A stretch of DNA of 32,000 nucleotides from Pyrodictium abyssi (GTDB lineage Archaea > Thermoproteota > Thermoprotei_A > Sulfolobales > Pyrodictiaceae), in contig NZ_AP028907.1 of the NCBI RefSeq assembly GCF_036323395.1, positions 629,588-661,587 on the forward strand, in the 5' to 3' direction. Below the pieces are notes generated by a model, which saw only the letters and a list, made by a program, of their open reading frames with translations, did not search any database and was not told where the DNA came from. The first letter of the stretch is position 1. The number at the start of each line of letters is the position of its first letter. Both the position numbers and the translations under genes were made by a program. Positions 10,178 through 26,082 of this stretch are shown one piece after another.

Positions 10178-11275
10178 GCTCGTCCACTCTACGCTGAAGC
10201 CCACCACTACCAGCACAGTGTCGAGGAGCACGCCCTCCCCGGCCTCGTAGTACGCGGTCACACCGTAGTAGGCCGCTGTAGCGTTCTCGAAGCGCCACGC
10301 CTCCTCATCCACGGTTATAGTGTCCTCTGGCTGCAGCCAGCCACTAGGCTTGTCAAAGCCCACCCGGGCAACCTCCTGCCCAAGCACCAGGACATCGTAG
10401 CCGGCCACTATGGCCTCGTTGACGTACAATGTAGCCGAAGGTGGATGGAATATGTAGGCCAGCGTTATGTTAAAGAGCCAGTTGCCGTCCTCGTCCATGA
10501 ACACTAGTGTTACAGTGACGTTAGTCGCGCGGGTTATCCCGTCGCTTATCGTATTCCGCTATAATCCAGGACTGGGTATGGTTCAGAAAGCTATCATACA
10601 CATAGATGTCAGCAGGCCTATCGTCGTAGCCTACTACTAGAGATAGTTATTGTCACCGGTGTGAGCGTTGGACAGCTTTACCGTAATGCCGAATCATACC
10701 ACCACTCGACAAGCCTGTCAGAGACGTTCTTGTACACGTACTCTTGTCCGTTACTCTCGTTGCGTATAACAAGGTATATCTTTGCAACCTTGTTTACGAG
10801 TTCTTGCACTATACTGTAAGCTGTATAACCTAGCTCTGGCAGGCCCTGCGACTCCACACTACTTCTTATCGCATTCTCAATCCCTTCAATCTTAGTTTCA
10901 TTGCGGATTTGGTATACAGGCTGATTATTAGGGAACTCCCCAGACTTTTTCACTCGTGTATGTGCCTTTGCCCTCGAATTCTGCTGCTTCTCTTATTATT
11001 AGTATCAGGTAGCGGAAGTACTGTTTTAGCTCTTCGGCGTTCTCTAGCTTCACCTTAAACCACGGGTTCACAGAGACCATACCCTGGGCGTCGGAGGCAG
11101 CGCCTATGGCTAGCGGTTTCACGACCTCAAAGTGCACCGGCTCTTCCCGGGCACCCGCTAGGCCAAGGGCATAGAAGACACCAGGTGTGCCCGTGAGCAC
11201 TGCTGCAAAGCCTGCTAGCAGGGCGAGGGCGGCAGCCGAGGCCATAACGCCAGCAACGGGCGGGAGCATGACCAA
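10178..11275 (-). pseudogene. Decayed paralogue of the secreted Can-like family, closest to the 389-aa member
   Basis: Homology to 24913-26082 runs through at least four frames. These are 11275-10928 (signal peptide to ...YFRYLILIIREA), 10953-10678 (...VEWWYDS), about 10650-10550 (...YDSFLNHTQSWIIAEY) and 10560-10178 (...ISDGITRATNVTVTLVFMDEDGNW...YYEAGEGVLLD...VEWTS). The family's terminal TS-TAG reads TS-TCG here, so the frame runs on through the tRNA. Confidence 0.8.
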
Positions 11276-11367
11276 TACGCGCCACAGCCCCGAGGCTCGG
11301 TGGAGCGGGCAGAAACCGAGCGCAGATGTTCTGCACCAAGTGACGCATTAAATGGGCGAGGAGATGT

Positions 11368-11378
11368 GGGAAAAACCG
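11368..11378 (-). terminator. Oligo-T terminator candidate for the 174-aa gene
   Basis: A5 at 11371-11375 on the + strand gives T5 on the coding strand, 49 nt past the stop at 11424. Confidence 0.4.
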
Positions 11379-11423
11379 TGTTAGCGGGGTTATGGGGCTC
11401 TCATATGGGCCTGGCTATGGGTG

Positions 11424-11948
11424 TTAGCTGACGCTTAGCACCTGGAAGTTGAGGATCACTGGTAGGCTGTCGAACAGCATACCCTCCTTGGCCTCGTAGT
11501 AGGCTTCAACCTTTAGCTGTATCTTGTTAGTGCTACTGTAGTCGTCGTTGTCTAGTATTATGACTGCGCTGGGCTTCTTGAGGCTTAGCACAGCCTTGGT
11601 CTCCTCAACAGTACTAGAGGCATTGCTTGTGAGTACTAGCTGTAGGTACTTGAAGTATGGCCTTAGCTGGGCAGCATTGGCTAGAGTCACCTTTAGCTTT
11701 ACTACGTTCACGTCAGTATAGTTTATTATTTTTACGTAGCCCATATCCTTGTAGCCCTGTGCGCCAGCAGCAGGAGCTATGGTGTTGTCTAGGTGGCTCT
11801 CTACGTCTATTGGCTCTTGCACTGCTTGTGCTGTGCCGGTGGCGTAGAAGCTGTTGAGCGGGCTCTGGGTGGTGGCGAAGCCAGCTAGCAGGGCGAGGGC
11901 GGCAGCCGAGGCGATGATACCCGCTATAGCTAGGGTTGTGTACCTCAT
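11424..11948 (-). CDS. Secreted filament-subunit candidate, Can-like family (174 aa; cannula CanA/B/C-like by architecture)
   Basis: Signal-peptide-like MRYTTLAIAGIIASAAALALLAGFATT, then SPLNSFYATGTA, APAAGAQG, LANAAQLRPYFKYLQL, and a C-terminal YYEAKEGMLFDSLPVILNFQVLSVS-stop. Sequons NYT and NAS are present. The start at ATG 11948 is chosen by alignment with the paralogue; the ORF is also open to ATG 11960. Confidence 0.8.
   Translation of the reverse strand: MRYTTLAIAGIIASAAALALLAGFATTQSPLNSFYATGTAQAVQEPIDVESHLDNTIAPAAGAQGYKDMGYVKIINYTDVNVVKLKVTLANAAQLRPYFKYLQLVLTSNASSTVEETKAVLSLKKPSAVIILDNDDYSSTNKIQLKVEAYYEAKEGMLFDSLPVILNFQVLSVS
11830..11948. repeat. Copy 1 of a 119-bp near-identical segment covering the 5' end of Can-like genes
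   Basis: 116/119 identical to 22053-22171. Differences are g/a at position 6, a/t at position 53, and ATG versus GTG at the start codon. Confidence 0.95.
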
Positions 11949-12012
11949 GGCTCGAGGCACCTTCCCGTCTATGTTTTTGTTCTGTCAAGTGTTATGTAGA
12001 AGTTGTTTCTGG

Positions 12013-12022
12013 CTTATAATAT
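12013..12022 (-). promoter_or_regulatory. TATA-like box upstream of the 174-aa Can-like gene
   Basis: The + strand cttataatat reads ATATTATAAG on the - strand, 65-74 nt upstream of ATG 11948. A similar element sits 55-64 nt upstream of the paralogue at 22171. Confidence 0.3.
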
Positions 12023-12104: not shown

Positions 12105-13301
12105 TTAGGGCCTGCAGTAGCCTGGGTCTGTGGAGTAGTCTAGTATCACCTTGAAGCGATAGGGTAGGCTCGTTGTACACGTGTCTATCCTTATCTCCGC
12201 TGTGAGCGGGACTGCGGGGTAGCTGTGGCCGCCGAGCTGTATTGCGACGCAGTCTCCCTCGTCTATTGTTATCTCGGCCTCGGGGTCGGAGGGCGTCAGC
12301 TCGCCCACCATGTTGTGGTTCGCGTCGTATAGTCTTACCTGGATGCCGCATACAGCGTGGTGGGGCTGTACGCCCTCTAGCTCTATCTCGAGGTCTATGG
12401 GCGTGTCTCTGCCGTCTAGGCAGCCGCAGTCCCGGTCGAGGATCACGTACAGCGTGTAGTTGGCTGCTACTATGCACCCGGATGGGCCGCAGCTTGTCTC
12501 CGAGCAGTCTGGGTAGATGCGCACATGCACATGTGTCCTGCCGTAGAGTATCCAGGCCTCGGGGCACTGCTGGGTGCTCGTGGTCGTCGTGCTTGTTGTG
12601 GTGCTCGTCTTTGTGGCCGTGCTGGTCGTAGTGGTGTTTACCGGCGGTGCTGTGACGGTTACCGTCGTGGTTACTGTCACCGTGGCTGTGCCGTTGGGCT
12701 GTGTCGTGGTTGTCGTGTAGGTGTACGTGTAGGTCTGGTTGTAGCTGGCTGGGCCTAGGTAGATTGTTCCCGTCTCCTGGTCGGCGACCGTCACTAGGAG
12801 TGGCACTGCTACTGTGGCGCTAGTGTTGCAGTCCCGTGGCTCGTAGTAGATCCTCGCCGCGAGGACCGCGTAGCGTGTTGTGCCGTTCTCTGCCCAGCTG
12901 CCTGCGTCGAGGACTATTGCTGCCGAGGGGTCCTGGAGCGACATGGTTGCGAGCAGCTCGTTGTTCACCGTGTTGAATACCTCGATGTGGAGCGCCCGGA
13001 GCCTGCCTGCCAGCATGTCCAGGTTGGCTATGGATAGTACTAGTCTCGCAACGTCGACTCCCGCTGCAGGCTCTATCCGGAGCCACTCGCCTACTTCTAG
13101 GCTCTGGGGGCCACATGCCCCGGGGGCTATCTGGAGGATAGGGGTCTCCAGTACCGATACCTTTACCGGCTTGTAGGGGGCGCTCACCTCGCCGGTGGCG
13201 TAGAACCCTGTGAGAGGGCTAACCGTGGTAGCGAAGACTGCCGCTAGGGCCAGGGCTAGCGTAGAGGCCAGTAGAGCTGCGAGGCCGAGACGGCGGTCCA
13301 T
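12105..13301 (-). CDS. Can-like family protein fused to a Thr-rich linker and a Cys-rich C-terminal domain (398 aa)
   Basis: MDRRLGLAALLASTLALALAAVFATTVSPLTGFYATGEV aligns with the family leader. SIANLDMLAGRLRALHIEV, SLQDPSAAIVLD and ARIYYEPRD align with family motifs. A Thr-rich linker (12570-12740) and a 10-Cys domain (12108-12564) follow. The start at ATG 13301 is chosen by alignment; the ORF is open to 13394. Confidence 0.75.
   Translation of the reverse strand: MDRRLGLAALLASTLALALAAVFATTVSPLTGFYATGEVSAPYKPVKVSVLETPILQIAPGACGPQSLEVGEWLRIEPAAGVDVARLVLSIANLDMLAGRLRALHIEVFNTVNNELLATMSLQDPSAAIVLDAGSWAENGTTRYAVLAARIYYEPRDCNTSATVAVPLLVTVADQETGTIYLGPASYNQTYTYTYTTTTTQPNGTATVTVTTTVTVTAPPVNTTTTSTATKTSTTTSTTTTSTQQCPEAWILYGRTHVHVRIYPDCSETSCGPSGCIVAANYTLYVILDRDCGCLDGRDTPIDLEIELEGVQPHHAVCGIQVRLYDANHNMVGELTPSDPEAEITIDEGDCVAIQLGGHSYPAVPLTAEIRIDTCTTSLPYRFKVILDYSTDPGYCRP
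12570..12740 (-). repeat. Low-complexity Thr-rich linker coding region
   Basis: Encodes YNQTYTYTYTTTTTQPNGTATVTVTTTVTVTAPPVNTTTTSTATKTSTTTSTTTTST. The ACN-codon periodicity is visible as gtgg/gtcg repeats on the + strand. Confidence 0.9.
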
Positions 13302-13530: not shown

Positions 13531-14688
13531 GTGCCTGGCATGCGGCTACCGCTACCGCTGCCCCGGCGTATCAAGATACGGCGCGAGCCCCGGCTAGCAG
13601 ACATCTGGATCATGCAGCGCTGGCCTATTGAGTCGCTCGACGCCTGCAAGATGGCGGACCCCCCGTTCGCCGACATAAACGGCGTGGGCGCTGTGCTGGA
13701 GAGGCTCGTGGACCAGGTCGTGGCGGGGCGGGGCGGCATATACATAATAGTCGGGGCCCCGGGCTCCGGCAAGTCCACGCTCCTCAAGACCCTGCATAAC
13801 CGGCTCCGCCGGGGCGGTATATACTCCCTCTACATGGATACCGCTGGGCGGAGCCTCGACGACTTCGTGGCTAGCCTCTGCTCTATCCTCGGCTGCCGCG
13901 AGGTCTCGCTCGACTCGCTCATGGAGAGGATACGCGAGAAAGCCGCGGAAGAGGGCACCATGGCCCTGCTCCTGGACGACATCGACCGCATATCCGGGGG
14001 CAACATGGACGATGTGGGCAAGCTGCTTACGGGCCTCACTGCTGTCCAGCGGGAGATCGGCCGCGGGCTCTTCATAGCCTTCAGCATGGCCCGTGAGAGC
14101 CTGGCAAGGCTCACCCTAGACCCCCTGATGAGGGGCCTCGTCAAGTCCTACATGGAGGTTATAGACCTTGACGAGCACCTCGTGAACTCCCCCACCGATC
14201 TCTCCAGGCTCCTCTACGCCCACTTCGAGCGGGCCCGGCCGCCCAACCCAGACCCCAAGGCCGCTGCTATACTCAACCGGTACCCGCTCCACCCTATCCG
14301 CGACCAGAACGTCATAAACATGCTCTACGAGATACTCGGCACAGATACGCCGCGCATGTACCTCGAGAAGGTGGACGAGCTGCTAAGGATAGCCATACGC
14401 GCCCGCTCACGCGTCGTGAGCATAGCACACCTAAACATACTAGCGAGGAGGCTCATCCAGGCCCGGCGCGAGGCTGTGCCCATTACCCAGATACAGGTCA
14501 TGCTGGTCCGCCGCTACGTGAACGGCCTGATAGCCGGCGGCCTCGTAGTGCTAGGCACAGTTGCCATAACCCTGGCGGCGATAAACCTAGTCCCGCCGGG
14601 CCTCAAGCTGCCCTACGTAGTGGTCGGCCTAGTGCTGATGCTCGCCGGTATACTGGTGCACATGAGGTCCATAGCTAGGCCGGGCTGA
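13531..14688 (+). CDS. Membrane-anchored P-loop NTPase (AAA_22/ORC-like ATPase domain plus two C-terminal TM helices)
   Basis: Walker A IIVGAPGSGKSTLLKTL and Walker B MALLLDDIDRI. The C-terminus has two hydrophobic helices, LIAGGLVVLGTVAITLAAINLV and PYVVVGLVLMLAGILVHM. The true start may be ATG 13612 or ATG 13651. Confidence 0.7.
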   Translation: MPGMRLPLPLPRRIKIRREPRLADIWIMQRWPIESLDACKMADPPFADINGVGAVLERLVDQVVAGRGGIYIIVGAPGSGKSTLLKTLHNRLRRGGIYSLYMDTAGRSLDDFVASLCSILGCREVSLDSLMERIREKAAEEGTMALLLDDIDRISGGNMDDVGKLLTGLTAVQREIGRGLFIAFSMARESLARLTLDPLMRGLVKSYMEVIDLDEHLVNSPTDLSRLLYAHFERARPPNPDPKAAAILNRYPLHPIRDQNVINMLYEILGTDTPRMYLEKVDELLRIAIRARSRVVSIAHLNILARRLIQARREAVPITQIQVMLVRRYVNGLIAGGLVVLGTVAITLAAINLVPPGLKLPYVVVGLVLMLAGILVHMRSIARPG

Positions 14689-14750: not shown

Positions 14751-15332
14751 GTGAGCGAGTACCTCAACGTAGTGGTACCGGAGGAGAGGGGCGGTATACC
14801 CCCCGCCCTGGTGGCGCTGGTAGCGCTAGCAGCCATAGTGGCCGCTGGGCTCAGCGTCTCTGGGCAGCTGCCGCGCTTCGCCGTCATCCAGACGACGAGT
14901 ATGGTCCCTACACTGGTTCCGGGAGACGTGGTGATGATAACGAAGGTTGACCCGATGTCGATCGATGTCGGCGACGTGATAGCCTTCAACCTTGTAGCCT
15001 ACGAGGTGGACGAGCAGGGGCGGCCCATCGACATGAAGGGCATCAAGATAACAGTGCACCGCGTGATAGAGAGGAAGATGATCAACGGCCGGCTCTACTT
15101 CCGCACCCAGGGCGATAACAACCCCGTGCCAGACCCCTGGCTCGTACCCGCCTCGGGCGTGCTGGGCAAGGCGGAGAAGGTTGCTAGCCTAGGCACCTTT
15201 GGCCTGGTACTGACCAACCCCATAGGCAGGGTGTTCGTGATAATGATAATGCTGTCGTCACTAGTCCTGCTGGGCAGCACTATGTGGAGCTATAGTAAGG
15301 GTATACGCGAGGATCTTGAGAACTACCTCTAG
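14751..15332 (+). CDS. Type I signal peptidase, archaeal/ER (Sec11/SipW-like, Ser-His) type
   Basis: Catalytic-Ser box IQTTSMVPTLVPGDVVMI, His box TVHRVIER and FRTQGDNNPVPDP box. N- and C-terminal TM helices are present. GTG start. Confidence 0.85.
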   Translation: MSEYLNVVVPEERGGIPPALVALVALAAIVAAGLSVSGQLPRFAVIQTTSMVPTLVPGDVVMITKVDPMSIDVGDVIAFNLVAYEVDEQGRPIDMKGIKITVHRVIERKMINGRLYFRTQGDNNPVPDPWLVPASGVLGKAEKVASLGTFGLVLTNPIGRVFVIMIMLSSLVLLGSTMWSYSKGIREDLENYL

Positions 15333-15454: not shown

Positions 15455-15895
15455 CTAGCCTGTGCTGCTGTCTTGCGTGTCCTCTAGGAAGGGCTTGCAG
15501 AGTGTCAGGTTCTCGGCTATGGTCTGGTTTAGGCTGTAGAGGGTCTTGCAGAGGTTCTCTAGCTCTTCGCCGCTCATGGTTACCTTGACGCCGTTTATCT
15601 CTAGGACTACGTTGCCGTCGCCGCCGCGGTAGAGGTTTATGGCGATGTTGTTGGAGCGGTTTACCAGCTCCACTATATCCTGGTGTATTTCGCGGACTAG
15701 CGTCTCGTTGAGAGTGCCCCTGGAGAGGGCAGTGGCGACCTTGGTGAGGTCCTGGCCCACCTGGTTAACGACAGTTGTGGCGTACTCGGCTATAGCCGTT
15801 ACCATGGCCATCGCCACGACGAAGGTCAGCAGGCCCGACAGCATAGCCTCCTTTAGCACCCGGTTCACCGTCTCTAGATACCCACCGTAAGGCAT
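15455..15895 (-). CDS. Small N-terminally anchored protein with conserved Cys pair, paralogue 1 (146 aa)
   Basis: TM helix LSGLLTFVVAMAMVTAIAEYA. The C-terminal ...EELENLCKTLYSLNQTIAENLTLCKPFLED aligns with 16817-17197, sharing C-x16-C and an NLT sequon. Confidence 0.65.
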   Translation of the reverse strand: MPYGGYLETVNRVLKEAMLSGLLTFVVAMAMVTAIAEYATTVVNQVGQDLTKVATALSRGTLNETLVREIHQDIVELVNRSNNIAINLYRGGDGNVVLEINGVKVTMSGEELENLCKTLYSLNQTIAENLTLCKPFLEDTQDSSTG

Positions 15896-16816: not shown

Positions 16817-17197
16817 CTAGCCGGCCAGCCCCTCGGACGTTATAACGTCTCTGCAGGGGGTCAGGTTGAGCGCGAGCCCGGGGTCGACGGCGTAGAGGGA
16901 CCAGCAGAAGAGCCTCAGCTGGGTCTCGTTGAGCACGAGCCTCTCGCCGCCGACGTAGACCGGGGTGCCGTTCAGCGCCTCCACGGCGCCCCGCAGGGCC
17001 GCCTCCTCCAAGTCGGCGAGGTCGCGCTGCAGCCTATCGAGGAGGCTCCAATCGGGCTCCCCCTCGGCCACGGCCTCGACCACGGCCATGAGGTCGGGCA
17101 GGACGCGGTCCACCAGGATACCCGCCACAAGCAGCGACGCGGCCAGGAGGGCTAGCGCGGGGGCGGCAGCCAGGGCTCCGCTGGCCACAGGGAGCAC
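16817..17197 (-). CDS. Small N-terminally anchored protein with conserved Cys pair, paralogue 2 (126 aa)
   Basis: Hydrophobic N-terminus ALAAAPALALLAASLLVAGILV. The C-terminal ...TQLRLFCWSLYAVDPGLALNLTPCRDVITS aligns with 15455-15895. Confidence 0.6.
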   Translation of the reverse strand: MLPVASGALAAAPALALLAASLLVAGILVDRVLPDLMAVVEAVAEGEPDWSLLDRLQRDLADLEEAALRGAVEALNGTPVYVGGERLVLNETQLRLFCWSLYAVDPGLALNLTPCRDVITSEGLAG

Positions 17198-17428: not shown

Positions 17429-17429
17429 C

Positions 17430-20400
17430 TCAGCCAGCCCCGGCGCGGGGGCCCGCGTAGTCGTCGCCGGCGGCCGGGGGGGCGGCTGTGGTGGCTGTGG
17501 CGTTCGCGGGGGTCACGTTGCCCGGTGCCGTGACGTTGGCTGGGGCTAGCTGGGCGCCCGGCCCCGCGGCTAGTACGCCGCTAGCACGGGCCAGTGTGAA
17601 GGACTCTCGGGCGCCGTCGGGCACGGCGCGCAGTACTGCCTCGTAGCTGGCCGTCGCGTTGCCCCTCAGCTGTATCTTCACCCTCATGGAGGCTATGTCG
17701 CCGGGCCGTAGCGCGTCAACCCTCATGACCGCCATGCTGGTGGTGTAGCTGCCCGGCTCGGCGTCGAGCACCTCTACCCCGCTGGGGAACTTTACGCTGA
17801 CAACCACGTTCCTGAGGTCTATCGAGTCCAGGTTCGCGGCGCTGACCTCTACTATGGCGCGGTCCCGGTACCTCTCCACCTCCTTGACCTCGAGGGCCAC
17901 GTGGGGCACCTTCACCCTCACCGGGACCGTGGCCAGCGTGTTGCCGTCGAGCCTGAGCACTATGTAGACCGTTGTCTCGCTCCCCAGCGGCGCGCCGGGG
18001 GAGACGTGTAGCGTAGCCCACCTGGTGGTGAACTCTCCGGGCTCAAGGTCCGCCCGCGTCGCCGGCAGGAAGAGCCTGGCTATCGAGTCGTTGCCGTTGA
18101 CCGGGACTATCTCCGCGCCCTCTATCCTCATACCAGAGGCCACGTCTATCCTCACGTCCACCTCGCTCCCGGGCGGCGCCGCGACGTAGCCCGGCGTCAC
18201 AGTGACCTCCACTGTGCGGCGGAGGAGCTCTAGCACTGGTATCCTGGCTACACGGTACTCCTTGATCAGGTACTGGCCGGTCTCGTCGTAGACCAGGAGC
18301 CTTGCGTCAAGCGTGTCCAGGGGCTCCAGCTTGACGGTGTCGAGGTTTACGCTTATGTCGAGCGTGCGGTGGCTCCGAGCCGGGAGCGCCACCGTCTCGG
18401 CGTAGTCGTATATCGTGCACGCCTTCACGTCGACGCAGTCGCCCTGCCCCTTGACGAGCACAAGCCGCGCTAGGAACACGGCGTCGCGGTCCTCTGGGTT
18501 GTAGAAGGACAAGCTTATGGTAAGCCCTCTCCTCGCTATGTCTACCTCCACGTCCTCTAGCCGGGGCTCCACCATGACGGAGCGTAGCTCCACGCCACTG
18601 GTGCTTGTTGCTATAACTTTGCCGTTCGGGTCGAGCACGTGTATGCTCATAGTGTAGACGCCGGGGTAGGCGGTCGGCGGCACCGGTATGTTGACCACGA
18701 AGCTAGCGCTGCCGCCCAGGGGCACCAGCTCCTCCCCGGACTCGGCCTCGCCCAGACCCTCTATCGAGACCCTGACCCTGAGCCGGGCGTCAGTGTTACC
18801 CGTGTTAGCCACCTTAACCTCTACGCGGAAGCTCTTACCCACCACCGGGAGGTCTAGCACACGCACCTCCTCCACGGTGGCAGAGACCACTGGCTCCACT
18901 GTCAGCAGGTTGTGGAGGCTCCAGGAGGCGTAGGGCATCCCCGCTATGTAGAGGACTGCGCGGGCGTCGTAGCTCCCTGCCGCGGCGTCGCCCGGGACCT
19001 GTATGGGGACCTGGACCAGGTTAATGCCGGGGAAGAGTGGCTCCTCAACGCTGTAGCTCCGGCCGAGCAGCTGTACCTCCAGCCGGCTCTGGACTGAGCC
19101 CTCGCCGTCCAGCCGGAGCTTCACCGAGACCAGGGCCTGGCCGCCGGGCTTCACGCTCCCCGGCGACGCGCTGTAGTCCTCCAGGGATATGCTGTACGAG
19201 ACTACCTCTAGCGCGGCCTCGGCGCGGGAGGCCTCGTAGAGGTCGTCGCCCCTGAACTCCACGGCGAGGCTGTGCCTGCCCACGCCGAGCCACGAGGTGT
19301 CGAACTCAACCACTGCCACGCCGTCTCGGCCGGTGCGGGCGCTGCCCACGAGCTTCCCGTCTACGTAGAAGCTCAGGGTGCGGCCCACGAGCGGGCCCCC
19401 GGAGACCCCGTCAACCAGCCTGGCCTCGACGTGGGCGAGGCTGCCGCGCGACACCACGAAGCTCTGAGCCTCTATCTTGCTCGGCCTCTTCAGCACCTCG
19501 ACTGTCTTGCTCTTGACGCCGGTTAGCCCCGTGTCGTCCACGACTGTGAGCGTGACGTTGTAGACACCGGGCTTCTCGAACACGTGGGTAACTATCGCGC
19601 CCTCGGCCACCGTGCCGTCGCCGAACTCCCAGCGGTACCCAGTGATGTTGCCGTCGGGGTCGTAGGAGAGGAGCCCGTAGAACGTGACGTTGACGCCCCA
19701 GTAGGGCTGCCGCGGCGAGAACCAGAACCCAGCGACCGGGGGCCTGCCCTCGACGCACCAGACCGGGCGCGAATCCAGCCAAGGCTCGTAGTACTGCCTG
19801 GGGTTAGGCCGCCCCTCAAGCCACGGCATCACTATAGGGCTGCCCTTGCCCTCCGGGTTGCCCGTAGCCCGGGGGCCCGAGGGGTCACCCCACCAGTTGT
19901 GCCCCGCGTAGACGTAGCCCTCCTCAACCTTCAGCCCGTACTCGGCGCCCTCCAGGCAGCTGTAGCTCACCACCGCGGTAGAGTCCACAACACTCTTCAC
20001 GTAGACCGCCTGGGGGCCCGAGACCCGGGAGTAGAGCACCTCTAGCCTCGCCCTGCCACCCACGCCGCCCTTCTCGCCGTCAATAATCAGGCTCTCCAGC
20101 TGGCACCTATAGATCCTCATCACGGTGGACTGGCCGTAGAGGCCCCAGTCCTCGCGCACCCAGTTATCCGCAATGCTCTCGCCCCGGACCAGAACCCTCC
20201 CCATAACGGTGTTGCTCGCAACAAGACTCGACTGGTCCAGGCCGCGGCCCGAGGAGGTGCCGTTGTAGAGCCCATAGCCGTGGATAGTGAGGCCCTCCAG
20301 CGTGGAGTCTGTGATGCTCATCCACGAGGATAGCAGCCCCTCAGGCCCCTCTACCACTACGCTGCCCAGCCTCACACGCTCCAGCACCAGGCTACTACGG

Positions 20401-21212
20401 AACAGCGCTGCGCCCTCCCCCGCGTAGCTCCGGTCTACCACCACGGAGAGCCCGGAGAACACGGAGTCGCTGATGCTTATCCGGGACTCGTAGACACCAT
20501 ACATGACCGCCGGCACTAGCTTGTAGCTCGTGACGGTGACAGTCGTGTTGCCGGTAGTGATGTTGTAGCGGATGGGCACCTTCACCTGCAGCCCGGTGGC
20601 GTAGGAGTGCACCACGAACTCCCCCGTGGCGTTGACGCGGCTCAAAGTTATCTCGGACTGGTACACCGCGCTAGTCTCGTTGCCCAGGCCCAGCGACTCC
20701 ACCCTAAAGTCGCCCACAATGGTCACGTTGTCCAGCGCCACCGTGGAGTTGTAGACGCTCCGGTAGGCCGCCTTGAAGGACAGCCCGCCACGTATAACAG
20801 AGTCCGTAAACGTCACGTTGGACTCCGTGAGCCCTGTAAACTCCAGGCCATCCTCGACAACAACGTTCTTGAACACCAGGACCGAGCCCGTCACAACAAG
20901 CGTGCCGCGCCCCACCAGTGTTACCGGGCTCCCCGGCTTACCCTCGGCAAGGATCACGCCACGGTCAACCGTGACCGTGACGCCGGGCGCGAATATCAGG
21001 ACAACACCGTCCTCTATCCGGACCTCGGCCTTAATCCGGATATCCCTCGTGATTATGTACGGGCTCCCCTCACGAGTCAACACAGTATTGACTATGATAT
21101 CGCGGTCGATAGGCGTAGGGCTCGCCTCAGCCCCCGCCGCGCCCCACACCCAGCCCGCCAGAGACACAAGGTACAGTACAAGGAGTATGGACACCAGTAG
21201 CCGCCTATACAA
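17430..21212 (-). CDS. Giant secreted surface protein: signal peptide, right-handed beta-helix region, PKD domain, multiple Ig/CARDB-like domains (1260 aa as encoded)
   Basis: Signal-like MYRRLLVSILLVLYLVSLAGWVWGAAGA. Repetitive beta-helix-type segments span aa 35-445 and end in HNWWGDPSGP. The PKD motif YRWEFGDGT...HVFEKPGVYNVTLTVVDDTG spans about 19494-19742. CARDB-like FRVEVKVANTGNTDA is present, with many N-x-S/T sequons and a C-terminal NVT/NAT/Thr-Pro tract. Confidence 0.85.
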   Translation of the reverse strand: MYRRLLVSILLVLYLVSLAGWVWGAAGAEASPTPIDRDIIVNTVLTREGSPYIITRDIRIKAEVRIEDGVVLIFAPGVTVTVDRGVILAEGKPGSPVTLVGRGTLVVTGSVLVFKNVVVEDGLEFTGLTESNVTFTDSVIRGGLSFKAAYRSVYNSTVALDNVTIVGDFRVESLGLGNETSAVYQSEITLSRVNATGEFVVHSYATGLQVKVPIRYNITTGNTTVTVTSYKLVPAVMYGVYESRISISDSVFSGLSVVVDRSYAGEGAALFRSSLVLERVRLGSVVVEGPEGLLSSWMSITDSTLEGLTIHGYGLYNGTSSGRGLDQSSLVASNTVMGRVLVRGESIADNWVREDWGLYGQSTVMRIYRCQLESLIIDGEKGGVGGRARLEVLYSRVSGPQAVYVKSVVDSTAVVSYSCLEGAEYGLKVEEGYVYAGHNWWGDPSGPRATGNPEGKGSPIVMPWLEGRPNPRQYYEPWLDSRPVWCVEGRPPVAGFWFSPRQPYWGVNVTFYGLLSYDPDGNITGYRWEFGDGTVAEGAIVTHVFEKPGVYNVTLTVVDDTGLTGVKSKTVEVLKRPSKIEAQSFVVSRGSLAHVEARLVDGVSGGPLVGRTLSFYVDGKLVGSARTGRDGVAVVEFDTSWLGVGRHSLAVEFRGDDLYEASRAEAALEVVSYSISLEDYSASPGSVKPGGQALVSVKLRLDGEGSVQSRLEVQLLGRSYSVEEPLFPGINLVQVPIQVPGDAAAGSYDARAVLYIAGMPYASWSLHNLLTVEPVVSATVEEVRVLDLPVVGKSFRVEVKVANTGNTDARLRVRVSIEGLGEAESGEELVPLGGSASFVVNIPVPPTAYPGVYTMSIHVLDPNGKVIATSTSGVELRSVMVEPRLEDVEVDIARRGLTISLSFYNPEDRDAVFLARLVLVKGQGDCVDVKACTIYDYAETVALPARSHRTLDISVNLDTVKLEPLDTLDARLLVYDETGQYLIKEYRVARIPVLELLRRTVEVTVTPGYVAAPPGSEVDVRIDVASGMRIEGAEIVPVNGNDSIARLFLPATRADLEPGEFTTRWATLHVSPGAPLGSETTVYIVLRLDGNTLATVPVRVKVPHVALEVKEVERYRDRAIVEVSAANLDSIDLRNVVVSVKFPSGVEVLDAEPGSYTTSMAVMRVDALRPGDIASMRVKIQLRGNATASYEAVLRAVPDGARESFTLARASGVLAAGPGAQLAPANVTAPGNVTPANATATTAAPPAAGDDYAGPRAGAG

Positions 21213-21478: not shown

Positions 21479-22171
21479 TTAGCCTACCTGCAGTACCTGG
21501 AAGTTGAGTATTACTGGTAGGCTGTCGAATAGCATGCCCTCCCTAGCCTCATAGAAGGCCTTGACCGTTAGTACAGCGAATGTAGCGTCATTGCCCATGC
21601 CATTGAATACGCCACTCTTAGTTATCTGCCAGCTGCCAGTTGCGTTGCCTATTTCTATCTTATCGCTGGGTGAACCTGGTACCCAGAATGTTACGTTTGC
21701 TGGTATGCTTGCAGCTGTCTCGTTCAGCTTAGCAATATTGAACAAGTCTTCAGCGTCAAGTATTATTACGGCTTTAGGCTTCTGTAGGGAGAGGACAGCT
21801 TTGATCTCTGAGTAGTTGCCTATAGCGGACTCGTTTGTGTTGAAGGCGCTTGTTATCTGTAGCTGTAGGTACTTGAAGTATGGCCTTAGCTGTGCGGCAT
21901 TGGCTATTTTTACTAGGAGCTTTACGTCGTTTACGTCGGCGCGTACTGGCACTAGCACAAAGCCCATGTCCTCGCTGCCCTGGGCGCCGGCGGCGGGGGC
22001 TATGTTGGTGTTGAGCTTGCTCACTACGTCTATTGGCTCGCTTACCGCCTCTGCTGTACCGGTGGCGTAGAAGCTGTTGAGCGGGCTCTGGGTGGTGGCG
22101 AAGCCTGCTAGCAGGGCGAGGGCGGCAGCCGAGGCGATGATACCCGCTATAGCTAGGGTTGTGTACCTCAC
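21479..22171 (-). CDS. Secreted filament-subunit candidate, Can-like family (230 aa)
   Basis: GTG start. The first 40 aa are identical to the 174-aa paralogue. Motifs APAAGAQG, IANAAQLRPYFKYLQL and a C-terminal FYEAREGMLFDSLPVILNFQVLQVG-stop are present. Five sequons: NES, NYS, NET, NVT, NAT. Confidence 0.85.
   Translation of the reverse strand: MRYTTLAIAGIIASAAALALLAGFATTQSPLNSFYATGTAEAVSEPIDVVSKLNTNIAPAAGAQGSEDMGFVLVPVRADVNDVKLLVKIANAAQLRPYFKYLQLQITSAFNTNESAIGNYSEIKAVLSLQKPKAVIILDAEDLFNIAKLNETAASIPANVTFWVPGSPSDKIEIGNATGSWQITKSGVFNGMGNDATFAVLTVKAFYEAREGMLFDSLPVILNFQVLQVG
22053..22171. repeat. Copy 2 of the 119-bp near-identical 5' gene segment
   Basis: See 11830-11948. Confidence 0.95.
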
Positions 22172-22235: not shown

Positions 22236-22289
22236 GTTTCTCTGCGCTGTCAAGCTGGTATATGTGTAACGTGTGTTATTATTGGCTTG

Positions 22290-23162
22290 GTGCGGTGGGT
22301 GTTTAGGCTCCGGGCGGGGGGAGCGCTACGAGGGGCGCTGGCTGTGGCCTGGCGTGCCTGGGTAGCTGTATCCAATGCTGTCCACTTCGAGGATGATGCT
22401 GGGCTCTGGGTTGATGGGGACCGCGGCGCTGTGGCGGTGGCGGATGGGGTCTCGATGTCCCGGGGCGGGGGCGCCTCGTTCCTGGCCGCGTGGGGGTTCG
22501 CTGCGCTCTGCCGGGCCCTGCTGCCGGACTGGAGGGGGAGCCTGGCGGGGGCCGCGCAGCGGTGCCTAGAGCTGCTGGACCGCGCCGCCCGGGAGGCGCT
22601 GGCGCTCGACGCCGCGGCTGTGGCGGAGGCGAAGCAGCGGTACTACCGCGGCTGCGGCTCTCCCTGCACCCGGCCCCCGGGCCTCGCCGAGCTAGAGGCC
22701 CTGAGGCCCCTGGAGCCCGGGGGGAGGGGCGCCGAGGCGAAGCCGAGCTCGACGCTCCTCGCAGCGCTCCTGGGCCCCGGGGGCCGGGCCGCGCTGGTGC
22801 TAGCCGGCGACGGCGCGGTGGTAGCGACCACGGGGGGCCGGGAGGACACCTGGCTCCTCTGGGGCGCGCTGCCCCAGTTCTACGAGGGGAGCCGGGTCGC
22901 CCGCTTCCTGGAGGTCGGCGGCGGGCTCCGGGGCGAGCCGGTGGTGCTGGAGACCATCCTGCCCCGGGGCACCCTGCTAGCCCTGGCGACGGACGGTGTG
23001 GACCCCGCGGCGCTCGCCGAGGAGCTGGTAGAGCTGGCCAGGCGGGGCATCCCCGAGCCCGCCGCCGAGAACCCGGCCGGCTACCTGCTACGCCGCATAG
23101 AGGAGCGCACCGGGGGCCTAGAGGACGACGCCACCCTCGCGCTGGTGGAGTGGACGGGCTAG
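22290..23162 (+). CDS. PP2C-like (PP2C_2/SpoIIE-type) protein phosphatase
   Basis: AVAVADGVSMSRGGGASFLAAW is the first metal-binding D-G motif region. LLALATDGVDP and the near-C-terminal LEDDATLALVEW are also present. The upstream part of the 361-aa ORF (22077-22289) is antisense to the Can-like gene and was discarded. Candidate starts are TTG 22287, GTG 22290 and GTG 22299. Confidence 0.55.
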   Translation: MRWVFRLRAGGALRGALAVAWRAWVAVSNAVHFEDDAGLWVDGDRGAVAVADGVSMSRGGGASFLAAWGFAALCRALLPDWRGSLAGAAQRCLELLDRAAREALALDAAAVAEAKQRYYRGCGSPCTRPPGLAELEALRPLEPGGRGAEAKPSSTLLAALLGPGGRAALVLAGDGAVVATTGGREDTWLLWGALPQFYEGSRVARFLEVGGGLRGEPVVLETILPRGTLLALATDGVDPAALAEELVELARRGIPEPAAENPAGYLLRRIEERTGGLEDDATLALVEWTG

Positions 23163-24018: not shown

Positions 24019-24075
24019 GCCCCCAGCGCCAGGATGCTATAGCTACGCTTATCCCTCTCCCCATCTCCTCTAGCG

Positions 24076-24747
24076 TTGTGGTGGAGAGGGGCCCCTACTG
24101 TGTCCCTGATAAGCCGGCTGCTGGAGGAGATGGACCGGGAGCCCGGGGAGGCCCGGAGGCTCGCAAGGAGGCTAGCCTCCGACATAGCCTCGGAGGAGAC
24201 GCTGCGCTCACTACTCCTAGAGGCCGTGGTCCGGGAGACGGCTACCAGGGAGGACCTGGAGCGGCTCGGAGACAGGCTAGAGGGGAGGATAGAAGCCCTA
24301 CACGGGGAGATGAAGACACTAGCCGCCAGGGACGAGCTGAGGGCGGAGGTACAGAGGCTGGAGGAGAGGATAGCAGGGGTAGAACAGAAGATAGAAGCCC
24401 TACGCGGAGAACTGGCGGAGACCAGGGAGAGGATGGCGACCAAGGAGGAGCTGGAGAAGCTGCGCGGGGAGATGAAGACGCTGGCATCGGAGGAGAGAGT
24501 GGCAAGGATAGAGGAGAGGATAGCAGGGGTAGAGCAGAGGATGGCGACACGGGAGGAGCTGTACGCCGTGAGGGAGGAGCTACGCGGGGAGATCCACCGT
24601 ACACGGGAGGAGCTACGGGCAGAGATAAGCCGGCTCCACAGCCGCCTCGACACCCTAGTCAAGTGGACCATAGGCCTACTCGTAACAGTCTGGGCAGCAA
24701 CACTAGCCGCAATGCTCACAGCACTAAGGCTACTAGCAGGAGGCTAG
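24076..24747 (+). CDS. Tail-anchored coiled-coil protein (DUF1640/CCDC90-like architecture), paralogue 1
   Basis: Repeated ATxEEL/ATREDL-initiated helical segments with an internal duplication: 24361-24390 versus 24511-24540 are 28/30 identical. C-terminal TM LVKWTIGLLVTVWAATLAAMLTALRLL. Start is TTG 24076 or GTG 24100. Confidence 0.7.
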   Translation: MWWRGAPTVSLISRLLEEMDREPGEARRLARRLASDIASEETLRSLLLEAVVRETATREDLERLGDRLEGRIEALHGEMKTLAARDELRAEVQRLEERIAGVEQKIEALRGELAETRERMATKEELEKLRGEMKTLASEERVARIEERIAGVEQRMATREELYAVREELRGEIHRTREELRAEISRLHSRLDTLVKWTIGLLVTVWAATLAAMLTALRLLAGG

Positions 24748-24861
24748 CCCCAGGAACACCCCCGTGCTTCTCTAAGGCGCTGACTCCGACGCCCCCAGCC
24801 CGAGCAGAACAAGGCCGTAGAAGAACCAAGAGGGGCCCAGAACCCCCCAGGAGGGGGAGGG

Positions 24862-24875
24862 GAAGGAAAAAGGCG
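24862..24875 (-). terminator. Oligo-T terminator candidate for the 389-aa gene
   Basis: A5 at 24867-24871 on the + strand. The - strand reads CCGCCTTTTTCCTTCCCCTCCCCC, 42 nt past the stop at 24913. Confidence 0.4.
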
Positions 24876-24912
24876 GTGTCTCTCGGGGGCCTCGGGCTGC
24901 CGCCCCCGCCGG

Positions 24913-26082
24913 CTAGCTGGTCTCCAGCACCTCTGCGTTGATGACTAGTGGTAGGCTGTCGAAGAGCACGCCCTCCAAGCCCTCGTAGAACACGGTGACA
25001 CCGTAGACAGCGGCGCGGCCGCCGTCAACCTTCCAGCTGTCCTCGTCAACCACCAGAGTATCCTCGGGCTGCCACCAGCCACTAGCCCGGTCAAAGCCTA
25101 AGGTGGCGCGAATATTGCCAAGCACAAGCACCGGATAGAGGCTACTCATGTACTCCTGAGCCTCAACTCTATCATAGACACCGTTTGTGTCGGTATCATA
25201 CCATGTCACATTCCACATCATGGTGAAGAGCACATTGCCTTCTTTATCAATGAACTCCAGTATCAATGTATAGTTGGTAGCTGCTATATCAGGCCATGTC
25301 CCTCCATCACTAACCTCGGCTATATATAAGCTTTCGTTCTCATAACTATCCCAGAAGAAGACACTAGGGTTATTATCGTAGAATATCCTTATGCTATAGT
25401 TTCCGTTGGGGTGTACAGGCTTCACTGAGAACCATAAACCCCGCTCAACAATATCATCAAGGCTTAAGTCTTCTACTAGTACTCGCCGACCGGGATTAGT
25501 TTCTGTGTTATTTATTAACGTCAGGTTAACATGGGCAACTTCTCCTAACAGCCTCCATGCAAATGCCGTAACGTTGACTCCTTCAGAAGCGTAGTTTGCT
25601 GAAACGTCGTAGATTTTCCCCGCCAATGTTGCGCTGTCTAGCGCATATCTGCCAAGGTTGTCAGGAGCACTTTCACTATCATTATCACTAGTCTCGATTC
25701 TCGGCGGGAGTTCCTCAAAGGGCGTTGGCCCTTTCCACTCCTCGTGTGCTTCCCGTATCTGTATGATGAGGTATCTGTAGTACTGTGCTAGCTGCTTGAT
25801 GTTCTCTAGCTCTAGGCGTATCTTTGTGGTGTTTACGTCGTTGTACCGTATGAGCTTGAGCCAGCTTGTCTCCTCTAGCTTGCCCTGTGCCCCCGCAGCA
25901 GGGCTTATGACGAGGTCCTTGAGCACCTGTAGGTCCACCGGCTCGCTAGTCGCCGCGCCGCCGCCGAGCCCGAGGAAGCCTGCTAGAGGGCTCCCCGTGG
26001 TGGCGAAGCCGGTTAGGAGGGCGAGGGCGGCAGCCGAGGCCACAACAGCCAGGAGAGCGAGAGTCTCGCGGCGGAGGCTCAC
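24913..26082 (-). CDS. Secreted Can-like family protein with large central insert (389 aa)
   Basis: GTG start. Leader MSLRRETLALLAVVASAAALALLTGFATTGSPLAGF, then SPAAGAQG, ELENIKQLAQYYRYLIIQIREA, and a C-terminal VFYEGLEGVLFDSLPLVINAEVLETS-stop. The central insert of about 230 aa is AT-rich and rich in N-x-S/T sequons. Confidence 0.85.
   Translation of the reverse strand: MSLRRETLALLAVVASAAALALLTGFATTGSPLAGFLGLGGGAATSEPVDLQVLKDLVISPAAGAQGKLEETSWLKLIRYNDVNTTKIRLELENIKQLAQYYRYLIIQIREAHEEWKGPTPFEELPPRIETSDNDSESAPDNLGRYALDSATLAGKIYDVSANYASEGVNVTAFAWRLLGEVAHVNLTLINNTETNPGRRVLVEDLSLDDIVERGLWFSVKPVHPNGNYSIRIFYDNNPSVFFWDSYENESLYIAEVSDGGTWPDIAATNYTLILEFIDKEGNVLFTMMWNVTWYDTDTNGVYDRVEAQEYMSSLYPVLVLGNIRATLGFDRASGWWQPEDTLVVDEDSWKVDGGRAAVYGVTVFYEGLEGVLFDSLPLVINAEVLETS

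What the first reader, a model, noticed from the sequence alone, without database searches (positions are those of the whole stretch)
10178..26082. Multi-paralogue secreted-protein locus that looks like a cannula-like / TasA-like filament system with undescribed accessory genes
SEEN: five minus-strand paralogues are present (10178-11275 decayed; 11424-11948; 12105-13301; 21479-22171; 24913-26082). They share a signal-peptide-like N-terminus with h-region SAAALALL(A/T)GFATT, and a conserved post-signal segment SPLxxFYATG. They also share the motifs aPaAGAQG and L.(L/V)aNa.QL..YF.YL. All end in YYEa.EG.LFDSLP.(I/V).N..VL followed directly by the stop. A central insert varies so that total length ranges from 174 to 389 aa, and N-x-S/T sequons are abundant. 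The genes are interleaved with a type I signal peptidase, a membrane-anchored P-loop ATPase and a 1260-aa beta-helix/PKD surface protein. Two small Cys-pair membrane proteins, tail-anchored coiled-coil proteins and a PP2C-like phosphatase are also present. KNOWN (from memory): Pyrodictium cannulae are described as built from three homologous glycoproteins (CanA/B/C, roughly 20-24 kDa) with identical N-termini. Cannulae, archaeal bundling pili and bacterial TasA fibres are reported to polymerise by donor-strand complementation. TasA depends on a dedicated ER-type signal peptidase (SipW) encoded next to it. INFERENCE: this is a filament-subunit locus of that kind. The conserved N-terminal FYATG segment and the C-terminal strand are candidates for donor and acceptor elements. 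The neighbours are candidate processing, assembly, anchoring and regulatory factors that, to my knowledge, have not been described as one system.
Basis: partly seen in the sequence, partly recalled or inferred. Interest (0 to 1): 0.9.

Follow-up and report, generated by a model that had tools for sequence, protein, structure and literature searches.

The report
Cannula gene cluster with linked peptidase-ATPase
This is the already published gene cluster for the protein tubes (cannulae) of the deep-sea archaeon Pyrodictium abyssi, but it also holds a signal-peptidase/ATPase gene pair that sits beside cannula-type genes in distant archaea, which conflicts with the published view that cannula loci carry no dedicated processing genes.

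Summary
The window is the canX gene cluster of Pyrodictium abyssi AV2. The 174-aa ORF (11424-11948) is 100% identical to CanX, the subunit of the native cannula solved by cryoEM (PDB 9h8b). The other paralogues are a CanA-like protein, two large Can-domain proteins and one frameshifted pseudogene. Subunit identity, signal-peptide export, N-terminal donor-strand complementation and Ca2+ locking are already published (Sleutel et al. 2025).

What is not published is a divergently transcribed pair in the middle of the cluster. It encodes a membrane-anchored AAA+/STAND-like ATPase (13531-14688) and an archaeal-type signal peptidase I (14751-15332). That paper states that can loci lack dedicated signal peptidases.

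Both proteins belong to small, narrow subfamilies. I found the trio of Can-like gene, peptidase and ATPase in P. occultum and in two unrelated low-GC uncultured lineages. Gene order and flanking genes differ between lineages. A fourth lineage keeps at least the ATPase-peptidase pair. None of 51 control peptidase loci has either partner.

The giant PKD protein, small Cys-pair proteins, DUF2204 and PP2C are conserved with the block only within Pyrodictium. The coiled-coil proteins are not conserved. A dedicated processing role for the pair is inferred, not shown.

The parts
10178..11275 (-). Decayed Can paralogue (pseudogene). It is related to the 389-aa type, has at least 3 frameshifts and has lost its stop codon. 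It abuts tRNA-Ile (9911-9987).
   Evidence: Three-frame translation; alignment; tRNA.
11424..11948 (-). canX, the major subunit of native cannulae. It has a 25-aa Sec signal peptide, cleaved at ...AGFA|TTQSPL, followed by the N-terminal donor strand.
   Evidence: 174/174 aa identical to PDB 9h8b CanX. Paper. 25-aa signal reported for CanA.
12105..13301 (-). Can-domain protein of 398 aa. It has an N-terminal Can core of about 178 aa, then a Thr-rich linker and a 12-Cys C-terminal domain. The P. occultum orthologue is 44% identical.
13531..14688 (+). Membrane-anchored AAA+/STAND-like P-loop ATPase. Walker A is GxPGSGKS, Walker B is LLLDDID, and there is a C-terminal two-helix TM hairpin. It is the first gene of the pair transcribed divergently from the can398-canX genes.
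   Evidence: Pfam AAA_22/AAA_16. Alignment A5. Hydropathy. AF2 model and Foldseek. PDB profile search: best hit Orc1/Cdc6, 7e-10.
14751..15332 (+). Archaeal (ER-type) signal peptidase I. It has Ser50 (SMVPT), His103 (HRV) and a GDNN box, plus N- and C-terminal TM helices. It lies 62 bp downstream of the ATPase.
   Evidence: TIGR02228 77.7 bits vs cut-off 51.85. Alignments A4 and A6. NCBI names the identical protein 'signal peptidase I [Pyrodictium abyssi]'.
15455..15895 (-). Small N-terminally anchored, sequon-rich protein with two Cys (146 aa). It is conserved in P. occultum (40% identity). Its role is unknown.
   Evidence: No Pfam or NCBIfam match.
16232..16801 (-). DUF2204 nucleotidyltransferase-fold protein, cytoplasmic. 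It is 81% identical in P. occultum. It lies within the conserved Pyrodictium block, but no link to cannulae is shown.
   Evidence: Pfam PF09970, 230 bits.
16817..17197 (-). Second small anchored Cys-pair protein (126 aa). It is a distant relative of the 146-aa protein's family (23% to the P. occultum small protein, E 4e-6). No counterpart is called in the P. occultum block.
17261..21212 (-). Giant secreted surface protein. The ORF 17430-21212 encodes 1260 aa: signal peptide, all-beta (beta-helix-like) N-terminal region, PKD, Ig-like/DUF11 domains and a PT-rich tail. The C-terminal TM anchor (17261-17503) is in another reading frame here, but is in frame in P. occultum.
   Evidence: Pfam. 67% identity to the 1296-aa P. 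occultum protein. Frame analysis. AF2 and Foldseek.
21479..22171 (-). CanA-like cannula subunit (230 aa) with the surface-loop insertion.
   Evidence: phmmer vs CanA 7uii, 1.2e-62 over the whole mature length.
22344..23162 (+). PP2C-type phosphatase, cytoplasmic. The true start is probably the GTG at 22344. It is 74% identical in P. occultum and sits at the same position in the block.
   Evidence: Pfam PP2C_2.
24913..26082 (-). Can-domain protein of 389 aa with a large central insertion.
   Evidence: P. occultum relatives of 422 and 386 aa.

Best explanation
The window is the canX gene cluster of Pyrodictium abyssi AV2.

Shown by others: CanX, and probably the CanA-like and larger paralogues as minor or alternative subunits, are exported by Sec. 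They lose a 25-residue signal peptide at ...GFA|TTQSPL. The freed N-terminal strand (FYATGTAQAV) then inserts into the B/K groove of the next subunit, and Ca2+ sites lock the lattice.

Shown here: the cluster has at its centre a two-gene unit transcribed divergently from the can398-canX genes. It encodes a membrane-anchored AAA+/STAND-like ATPase and an archaeal signal peptidase I. Both proteins belong to small subfamilies. Where enough contig is available, their members lie next to Can-like genes in other archaeal lineages.

Inferred: the peptidase is the cannula-specific signal peptidase, analogous to SipW for TasA. It generates the exact N-terminus of the donor strand at the membrane. The ATPase, through its TM hairpin, is its accessory or regulatory partner, for example gating or localising processing so that polymerisation starts only at the cell surface. 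The ATPase role is the weakest step.

The giant PKD surface protein, the small anchored proteins and PP2C may be Pyrodictium-specific additions (anchor or regulation). This is not demonstrated.
For: Identity of the locus:
- CanX is 100% identical to 9h8b.
- The peptidase and ATPase are identical to P. abyssi proteins on a 2.22-Mb contig.
- The mechanism of export and assembly is published.

The peptidase is genuine:
- TIGR02228 scores above its cut-off.
- Ser50, His103 and the GDNN-box Asp (D122) are invariant in the subfamily alignment.

Both subfamilies are narrow:
- A full HMMER scan of 1.84 billion representatives gives only 5 clusters with E<1e-30, then a gap from 131 to 88 bits.
- The word-indexed searches find NCBI-named proteins only from P. 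abyssi and P. occultum.

Conserved neighbourhood:
- P. occultum has Can414 | ATPase, peptidase | small protein | DUF2204 | giant | PP2C | Can422. The flanks are rearranged relative to P. abyssi.
- L008 (GC 61%) has ATPase (42%) then peptidase (49%) with a 30-bp gap.
- L010 (GC 47%, 132-kb contig) has Can-like (E 7e-16 to CanX; CanX is its top PDB hit at 2e-11), then peptidase (48%), then a convergent ATPase (27% over 374 aa, same TM hairpin). All its other neighbours are housekeeping genes.
- L012 and L013 (GC 41-46%) have the peptidase, then a convergent ATPase, then a Can-like gene on the ATPase strand.

Controls: 51 distant signal-peptidase loci from the same metagenome scan, plus L004 and L005, have no member of this ATPase family. 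L005 carries only an Orc1/Cdc6-type AAA+ gene, with a weak hit of 31.7 bits. None has a Can-like ORF.

Literature:
- P. delaneyi is reported to lack Can genes. No NCBI-named close homologue of the peptidase or the ATPase came from any species other than P. abyssi and P. occultum.
- A different, AbpX-linked signal peptidase exists elsewhere in the P. abyssi genome.
Against: - No experiment links this peptidase or ATPase to cannulae.
- Recombinant CanA and CanX-like proteins polymerise in vitro with Ca2+ alone, so no accessory factor is needed for polymerisation itself.
- I could not enumerate all signal peptidases of P. abyssi or P. occultum. It is therefore not excluded that this enzyme is also, or only, the general two-TM housekeeping peptidase. 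The AbpX-linked class is described as a 10-TM type.
- One subfamily member on a 1.46-kb contig (L066, 59% identical) is flanked by the tail of a surface-anchored protein and an RHH gene, not by the ATPase.
- P. abyssi has 15 Can-like genes in two clusters plus orphans, and most are not next to a peptidase.
- The absence from P. delaneyi rests on the assumption that its proteome is in the database searched.
- The can genes have GC3 near 0.6, while the peptidase and ATPase have 0.77-0.81. Their compositional histories may therefore differ.
Confidence: 0.6

Rival explanations
1. The peptidase is simply the housekeeping Sec signal peptidase of these archaea, and the ATPase is an unrelated membrane protein. 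Their position beside can genes is inherited synteny without functional meaning. Cannulae need no dedicated factor, as published.
For: - In vitro assembly needs only Ca2+.
- The enzyme has the ordinary two-TM architecture.
- It matches the general archaeal equivalog TIGR02228 rather than SipW (NF046067: 34.5 bits vs cut-off 190).
- The only other P. abyssi peptidase known from the literature is AbpX-linked, and that class is described as 10-TM.
- L066 lacks the ATPase at the adjacent positions.
Against: - The trio recurs in three lineages that share 25-48% identity and differ by about 20 points in GC. Gene order and orientation differ, and no other neighbour is shared.
- None of 51 control peptidase loci has either partner.
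- The subfamily is very small. Close homologues named by NCBI come only from the two cannula-forming species.
Confidence: 0.22
2. The whole 16-kb block is one cannula assembly, anchoring and regulation system. It would comprise the peptidase, ATPase, two small Cys-pair membrane proteins, DUF2204, the giant PKD/beta-helix protein, PP2C and the coiled-coil proteins.
For: - The block Can414 | ATPase, peptidase | small | DUF2204 | giant | PP2C | Can422 is kept intact between P. abyssi and P. occultum (40-81% identity), while both flanks are rearranged.
- The giant and small proteins are sequon-rich surface proteins.
- The giant protein has a membrane anchor in P. occultum.
- In L066 a surface-anchored protein precedes the peptidase.
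Against: - Conservation is only within one genus.
- No homologue of the giant protein, small proteins, DUF2204 or PP2C lies within 10 kb of the trio in L010, or in the shorter stretches held for L012 and L013.
- The coiled-coil proteins are not found in either P. occultum stretch examined.
- DUF2204 and PP2C are cytoplasmic families with no known link to filaments.
Confidence: 0.15
3. The ATPase is a DNA-handling AAA+ protein of the Orc1/Cdc6-TnsC-MuB type, tethered to the membrane. It would serve the proposed DNA cargo of cannulae rather than signal-peptide processing.
For: - The closest solved relatives by profile and by fold are DNA-binding AAA+ proteins: Orc1/Cdc6 at 7e-10, then MuB and TnsC.
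- The paper reports a DNase-sensitive 2-nm filament inside native cannulae.
Against: - The matches are generic AAA+ core similarity. Foldseek E-values are about 1e-5 and TM-scores 0.35-0.4, on a model with pLDDT 58.8.
- No winged-helix or other DNA-binding domain was detected.
- The constant partner is a peptidase.
- The Walker B pattern D[DN]xD resembles STAND/NACHT switches.
Confidence: 0.05

Closest known systems
Pyrodictium abyssi cannulae: CanX (PDB 9h8b) and CanA (7uii); Sleutel et al., Nat Commun 2025, PMC12518558
   Same: It is the same locus. CanX is identical. The CanA-like protein, the flanking paralogues, the clustering of Can genes, Sec/SPase I export, N-terminal donor-strand complementation and Ca2+ coordination are all described there.
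   Different: The paper states twice that can loci contain no dedicated signal peptidase or chaperone. Here a signal peptidase I gene lies two genes from canX (about 1.45 kb beyond the start of can398), paired with a membrane ATPase. This pairing with Can-like genes recurs in other lineages.
Bacillus subtilis tapA-sipW-tasA operon (TasA fibres with the dedicated ER-type signal peptidase SipW). Established knowledge, also cited.
   Same: A donor-strand filament subunit of the TasA superfamily is encoded beside an ER/archaeal-type Ser-His signal peptidase.
   Different: The peptidase here does not reach the SipW equivalog cut-off (34.5 vs 190 bits). There is no TapA-like gene. The partner is an AAA+/STAND-like ATPase, which the TasA system lacks.
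AbpX loci: signal peptidase I (10-TM type) with the DUF5305 accessory protein (bioRxiv 10.64898/2026.01.04.697558)
   Same: [quoted passage not shown]
   Different: The peptidase here has two TM helices, not ten. The accessory protein is a P-loop ATPase with no extracellular beta-sandwich and no DUF5305 match.
Chaperone-usher pili of bacteria
   Same: Polymerisation is by donor-strand complementation, with pocket-specific donor residues.
   Different: There is no periplasmic chaperone or outer-membrane usher. Cannula subunits self-assemble with Ca2+ in vitro.
ExeA/GspA-type membrane-anchored AAA_22 ATPases of type II secretion. Recalled from memory as a lead, not tested.
   Same: A cytoplasmic AAA_22-type P-loop domain is tethered to the membrane and serves assembly of an envelope structure.
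   Different: No specific sequence relationship was tested or found here. The closest solved relatives are Orc1/Cdc6, TnsC and MuB.

Membership tests
Cannula subunit family (CanA/CanX; TasA superfamily) | Sequence homology to CanA/CanX | tested here: met
   CanX is identical. The 230-, 389- and 398-aa proteins score E 9e-64, 8e-30 and 2.6e-15 against CanX.
Cannula subunit family (CanA/CanX; TasA superfamily) | Sec-type signal peptide of about 25 residues, followed by an amphipathic N-terminal donor strand with an aromatic residue at P1 and a central Gly | tested here: met
   A hydrophobic segment spans about residues 5-26 in all intact paralogues. The donor segment is SPLxxF[YL]xxG. The published definition is, and the 25-aa signal.
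Cannula subunit family (CanA/CanX; TasA superfamily) | Jelly-roll fold that polymerises by donor-strand complementation with Ca2+ sites | tested here: met
   Met for CanX only, by identity with the solved filament 9h8b. The other paralogues were not modelled here. The paper reports AF2 models of them.
Archaeal/ER-type signal peptidase I (S26B; TIGR02228) | Profile score above the curated cut-off | tested here: met
   77.7 bits vs cut-off 51.85. Pfam Peptidase_S26 scores 23.8 vs 22.9.
Archaeal/ER-type signal peptidase I (S26B; TIGR02228) | Catalytic Ser (SM.PT box) and His (HR box, in place of the bacterial Lys), plus the GDN box | tested here: met
   S50, H103 and the GDNN-box Asp (D122) are invariant in six subfamily members. 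The archaeal sequences from loci show the same Ser and His.
Archaeal/ER-type signal peptidase I (S26B; TIGR02228) | Cleaves pre-Can proteins | not testable with these tools
   Needs biochemistry.
Dedicated filament signal peptidase (SipW-like role) | Encoded beside the filament subunit genes, with the linkage conserved across lineages | tested here: met
   Seen in the window, P. occultum, L010, and L012/L013. In L008 the sequence upstream is cut off. In L066 it is not seen within 1.46 kb.
Dedicated filament signal peptidase (SipW-like role) | A separate housekeeping signal peptidase exists in the same genome | tested here: inconclusive
   The literature reports one more enzyme (AbpX-linked) in P. 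abyssi. The genome itself could not be reached with the tools.
Dedicated filament signal peptidase (SipW-like role) | Member of the SipW equivalog NF046067 | tested here: not met
   34.5 bits vs cut-off 190.
AAA+/STAND P-loop ATPase (Pfam AAA_22 / AAA_16) | Walker A and Walker B motifs, and a profile score above the cut-off | tested here: met
   AAA_22 scores 49.9 vs 27, and AAA_16 scores 41.6 vs 32.6. Walker A is GxPG[SG]GK[ST] and Walker B is hhhhD[DN]xD, conserved in five sequences. The AAA core is modelled at pLDDT 70-90.
AAA+/STAND P-loop ATPase (Pfam AAA_22 / AAA_16) | Arginine finger or oligomeric ring | tested here: inconclusive
   The lid region has pLDDT below 50. No multimer modelling was available.
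DUF5305 signal-peptidase accessory protein | DUF5305 profile match and an extracellular beta-sandwich between two TM helices | tested here: not met
   No such Pfam hit for the ATPase or any neighbour. The TM hairpin has only a short loop.

The most novel reading that the evidence does not exclude
Cannula biogenesis in vivo is not machinery-free. A conserved membrane module, made of a STAND/AAA+ ATPase and its own signal peptidase, would control where and when the donor strand of Can subunits is released. This would make it an energy- or nucleotide-gated assembly platform for an archaeal donor-strand filament. It would be a functional counterpart of the chaperone-usher or SipW/TapA systems, built from unrelated parts and present beyond the Pyrodictiaceae in low-GC uncultured Thermoproteota.
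Probability: 0.25. Interest if true: 0.8.

Novelty: new variant of a known kind. Interest (0 to 1): 0.5.

Why it matters
Cannulae are among the most unusual archaeal surface structures and are being developed as heat-stable nanotubes. The current model is 'chaperone-free' self-assembly, supported in part by the reported absence of dedicated peptidases or chaperones in can loci. A peptidase-ATPase pair that is genomically coupled to Can-like genes in several lineages has three consequences. It gives the first concrete candidates for the in vivo processing or assembly step. It corrects that statement in the literature. It also extends Can-like systems to uncultured low-GC archaea. The core locus itself is already known, so the added value is limited to this module.

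Tried and rejected
Searches that gave little or nothing:
- Two genome-contig scans with Can alignments. The first found nothing and the second found only a 6.3-kb Hyperthermus MAG contig, L007. Neither scan returned P. abyssi or P. occultum, although the second pattern set should match P. occultum.
- A metagenome scan with Can patterns found nothing.
- The ATPase alignment was too divergent to seed a scan.
- Exact look-ups of P. abyssi proteins and of one P. occultum Can protein (P0038) were not on record. I therefore could not see the second P. abyssi can cluster or count the signal peptidases per genome.
- The listing of cluster members gave no organism names for the closest peptidase relatives.
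- A PCNA comparison did not resolve the taxon of L010 beyond 'crenarchaeal-like'.
- The paper's supplements are not held as text.

Ideas considered and rejected:
- Pfam and NCBIfam gave nothing for the Can proteins, the two small membrane proteins or the N-terminal 490 aa of the giant protein.
- L004 has a 50%-identical peptidase core beside secreted proteins, but no ATPase or Can-like gene. L005 is a euryarchaeal housekeeping context. I used both as controls, not as members.
- I considered the coiled-coil proteins (23224-24018, 24076-24747, 26428-27177) as part of the system. I rejected this because no counterpart is found in the P. occultum stretches examined.

Full report
**What is there.** The window has about 64% GC. 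Between 10.2 and 26.1 kb it carries four intact minus-strand paralogues and one decayed one, at the coordinates given.
- The 174-aa ORF (11424-11948) is identical over all 174 residues to PDB 9h8b 'CanX'.
- The 230-aa ORF matches CanA (7uii) over its whole mature length (E 1e-62).
- The 389- and 398-aa ORFs match CanX at E 8e-30 and 2.6e-15.
- The peptidase and ATPase ORFs are 100% identical to NCBI proteins of Pyrodictium abyssi on a 2.22-Mb contig.

The window is therefore the canX region of P. abyssi AV2.

**Check of the observation.** Most motifs hold. There are two corrections.
- The 398-aa protein has its Can core in the first ~178 residues. This is followed by a Thr-rich linker and a 12-Cys domain, so it does not end in the family's C-terminal motif.
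- 10178-11275 is a real pseudogene. It has three frame changes, internal stops and a lost stop codon, and it runs into tRNA-Ile.

Sequons are enriched 2-3 fold in the Can proteins, the giant protein and the two small anchored proteins. They are absent from all cytoplasmic proteins of the window.

The neighbours are as described:
- Archaeal signal peptidase I (TIGR02228, 77.7 vs 51.85 bits).
- AAA_22/AAA_16 ATPase with two C-terminal TM helices.
- A 1260-aa protein with a PKD domain. Its N-terminal region is all-beta, and its only structural neighbours are parallel beta-helices, though none is significant.
- PP2C, DUF2204, two small Cys-pair membrane proteins and two tail-anchored coiled-coil proteins.

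**What is already known.** Sleutel et al. (Nat Commun 2025, PMC12518558) solved the native cannula of strain AV2 at 2.3 A and identified WP_338251948.1 as CanX.
- They found 15 Can-like genes, 11 of them in two clusters.
- They noted that CanX is flanked by two paralogues, and they described a CanA-like paralogue.
- They showed N-terminal donor-strand complementation (strand A into the B/K groove; aromatic at P1, central Gly) and three Ca2+ sites.
- CanA has a 25-residue signal peptide (PMC12326000).

[quoted passage not shown] It repeats this in the discussion. Full-text searches found no paper linking a peptidase or ATPase to can genes. Yet 230 bp from the start of the 398-aa Can gene, on the other strand, begins a two-gene unit:
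- ATPase, 13531-14688.
- A 62-bp gap.
- Signal peptidase I, 14751-15332.

**Comparative evidence for the pair.**

(a) Both subfamilies are narrow.
- The word-indexed search finds close peptidase homologues only in P. abyssi-like sequences (93-100%), P. occultum (71%) and two metagenome proteins (~50%).
- The exhaustive HMMER scan of 1.84 billion representatives finds only five clusters below 1e-30, then a drop from 131 to 88 bits.
- The ATPase search returns only P. abyssi and P. occultum.

(b) P. occultum keeps the block Can414 | ATPase (71%), peptidase (71%) | small protein (40%) | DUF2204 (81%) | giant (67%, with an in-frame TM anchor) | PP2C (74%) | Can422. The segments that flank the block in P. 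abyssi lie elsewhere and inverted (hydantoinase-PGI-CanX on one side; Can389-kinase-like-VWA-Roadblock on the other).

(c) Distant lineages.
- L008 (GC 61%) has ATPase then peptidase with a 30-bp gap.
- L010 (132-kb contig, GC 47%) has a Can-like gene, then the peptidase, then a convergent ATPase, among housekeeping genes. CanX is the top PDB hit of its Can-like protein (2e-11).
- L012 (NCBI MAG, GC 46%) and L013 (JGI contig, GC 41.5%) belong to one lineage. They have the peptidase, then a convergent ATPase, then a Can-like gene on the ATPase strand.

(d) Controls. In 51 more distant signal-peptidase loci from the same scan, and in L004 and L005, profile searches find no member of this ATPase family and no Can-like ORF. 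L005 holds only an Orc1/Cdc6-type gene with a weak 31.7-bit hit.

(e) Exceptions and unknowns.
- L066 (59% identical peptidase, 1.46 kb) is flanked by the PT-rich, TM-anchored tail of a surface protein and by an RHH gene.
- L014 and L007 are cut by contig ends.

**The two proteins.**
- The peptidase has the ER/archaeal Ser-His signature: S50 in SMVPT, H103 in HRV, and GDNN. It has N- and C-terminal TM helices.
- It does not reach the SipW equivalog cut-off.
- The ATPase has Walker A GxPGSGK[ST] and a Walker B of the D[DN]xD type, as in NACHT/STAND proteins. It also has conserved NP[LI]HP and TPRxY motifs and a Gly-rich TM hairpin.
- Its AAA core is modelled with pLDDT 70-90, but the lid is poor (overall pLDDT 58.8).
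- Its closest solved relatives are Orc1/Cdc6, MuB and TnsC, at generic AAA+ level only.
- It is not DUF5305, the accessory protein described for AbpX-linked peptidases.

**Interpretation.** The secure part is that this is the cannula subunit cluster, and that it works as published. The new, inferred part is that the peptidase-ATPase pair is functionally coupled to Can-like proteins.
- Most likely the peptidase is the enzyme that removes the highly conserved Can signal peptide and so creates the donor-strand N-terminus.
- The ATPase would be a membrane accessory or regulatory subunit.
- Recurrence of the trio in three lineages, with different gene orders and no other shared neighbour, is the standard signature of functional coupling. 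I put about 0.6 on this reading.

It does not contradict Ca2+-driven self-assembly in vitro. It concerns processing and control in the cell.

The main rival is a housekeeping peptidase with inherited synteny. It cannot be excluded, because I could not list all peptidases of these genomes. The giant protein, small proteins, DUF2204 and PP2C are linked only by within-genus block conservation. The coiled-coil proteins are not linked at all.

**Verdict.** The finding is real and correctly read, but the subunit locus is already known. The added value is the conserved Can-peptidase-ATPase module, which conflicts with a published statement and is testable. This amounts to a new variant of the known 'TasA-type filament plus dedicated signal peptidase' arrangement, of moderate interest.

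Noticed in passing
window 17261-17503 (minus strand): The C-terminal TM anchor and Arg-rich tail of the giant surface protein (…RVLLALLLSLVALAAIVAAIQRLRGTRRGG…) are encoded in a different reading frame. This frame overlaps the last ~24 codons of the 1260-aa ORF, which stops at 17430. The P. occultum orthologue has the anchor in frame. This could be a real frameshift giving a released form, a sequencing error, or recoding.
   Followed up: partly
window 11831-11948 vs 22054-22171 (minus strand): The first ~118 nt of canX and of the CanA-like gene (signal peptide plus donor strand) differ at only 2 positions, silent sites included. The upstream DNA is unrelated and the downstream DNA diverges. 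This suggests gene conversion or very recent exchange of this segment.
   Followed up: partly
window 10178-11948, 21479-22171, 24913-26082: canX, the CanA-like gene, the 389-aa gene and the pseudogene have GC3 of 0.58-0.63. Every other gene in the window has 0.72-0.91, including the peptidase (0.77) and the ATPase (0.81). This could reflect foreign origin or a special codon usage of very highly expressed secreted proteins.
   Followed up: partly
window 9911-10504: The Can pseudogene lies directly beside tRNA-Ile (GAT), and its open frame now runs through the tRNA gene. tRNA genes are common integration and rearrangement points.
   Followed up: no
window 29061-31789; L067 7155-9843: A trio of genes lies next to a large Can paralogue in both Pyrodictium species: Can389 in P. 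abyssi and Can386 in P. occultum. The trio is a protein with weak Bud32-kinase similarity (375 aa), a VWA-domain protein and a Roadblock/LC7-like protein. Together with the PP2C gene, this resembles archaeal phospho-signalling modules that control surface structures (resemblance from memory; not tested).
   Followed up: partly
window 23224-24018, 24076-24747, 26428-27177: There are three coiled-coil proteins with repeated ...ATREEL/LEERxxxxE... heptads. One carries DUF3782 plus a PD-(D/E)XK domain, and two are tail-anchored. No counterpart is found in the P. occultum stretches examined, so they are probably unrelated insertions.
   Followed up: partly
L004 6893-13037: An uncultured high-GC (66%) archaeon has a 217-aa signal peptidase whose core is 50% identical to the can-linked enzyme. 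It sits among several secreted beta-rich proteins without Pfam matches, with no ATPase or Can-like gene nearby. This may be another filament-type locus.
   Followed up: partly
L066 1-1053 and L007 5784-6308: The closest metagenomic relative of the peptidase (59% identical) and a Can-like gene assigned to a Hyperthermus MAG come from the same JGI metagenome (Ga0232637), but on separate short contigs. In L066 the peptidase follows the PT-rich, TM-anchored tail of a surface protein, reminiscent of the giant protein's tail.
   Followed up: partly
L010, L012, L013: Can-like proteins that are recognisably related to CanX occur in uncultured archaea with 41-47% GC. CanX is the top PDB hit at 2e-11 for the L010 protein. 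The L012 and L013 proteins are linked to it through L010 at about 1e-16. The taxonomic identity of these contigs was not resolved, so it is open whether they fall outside the Pyrodictiaceae, the family to which direct CanX homologues were reported to be confined.
   Followed up: partly
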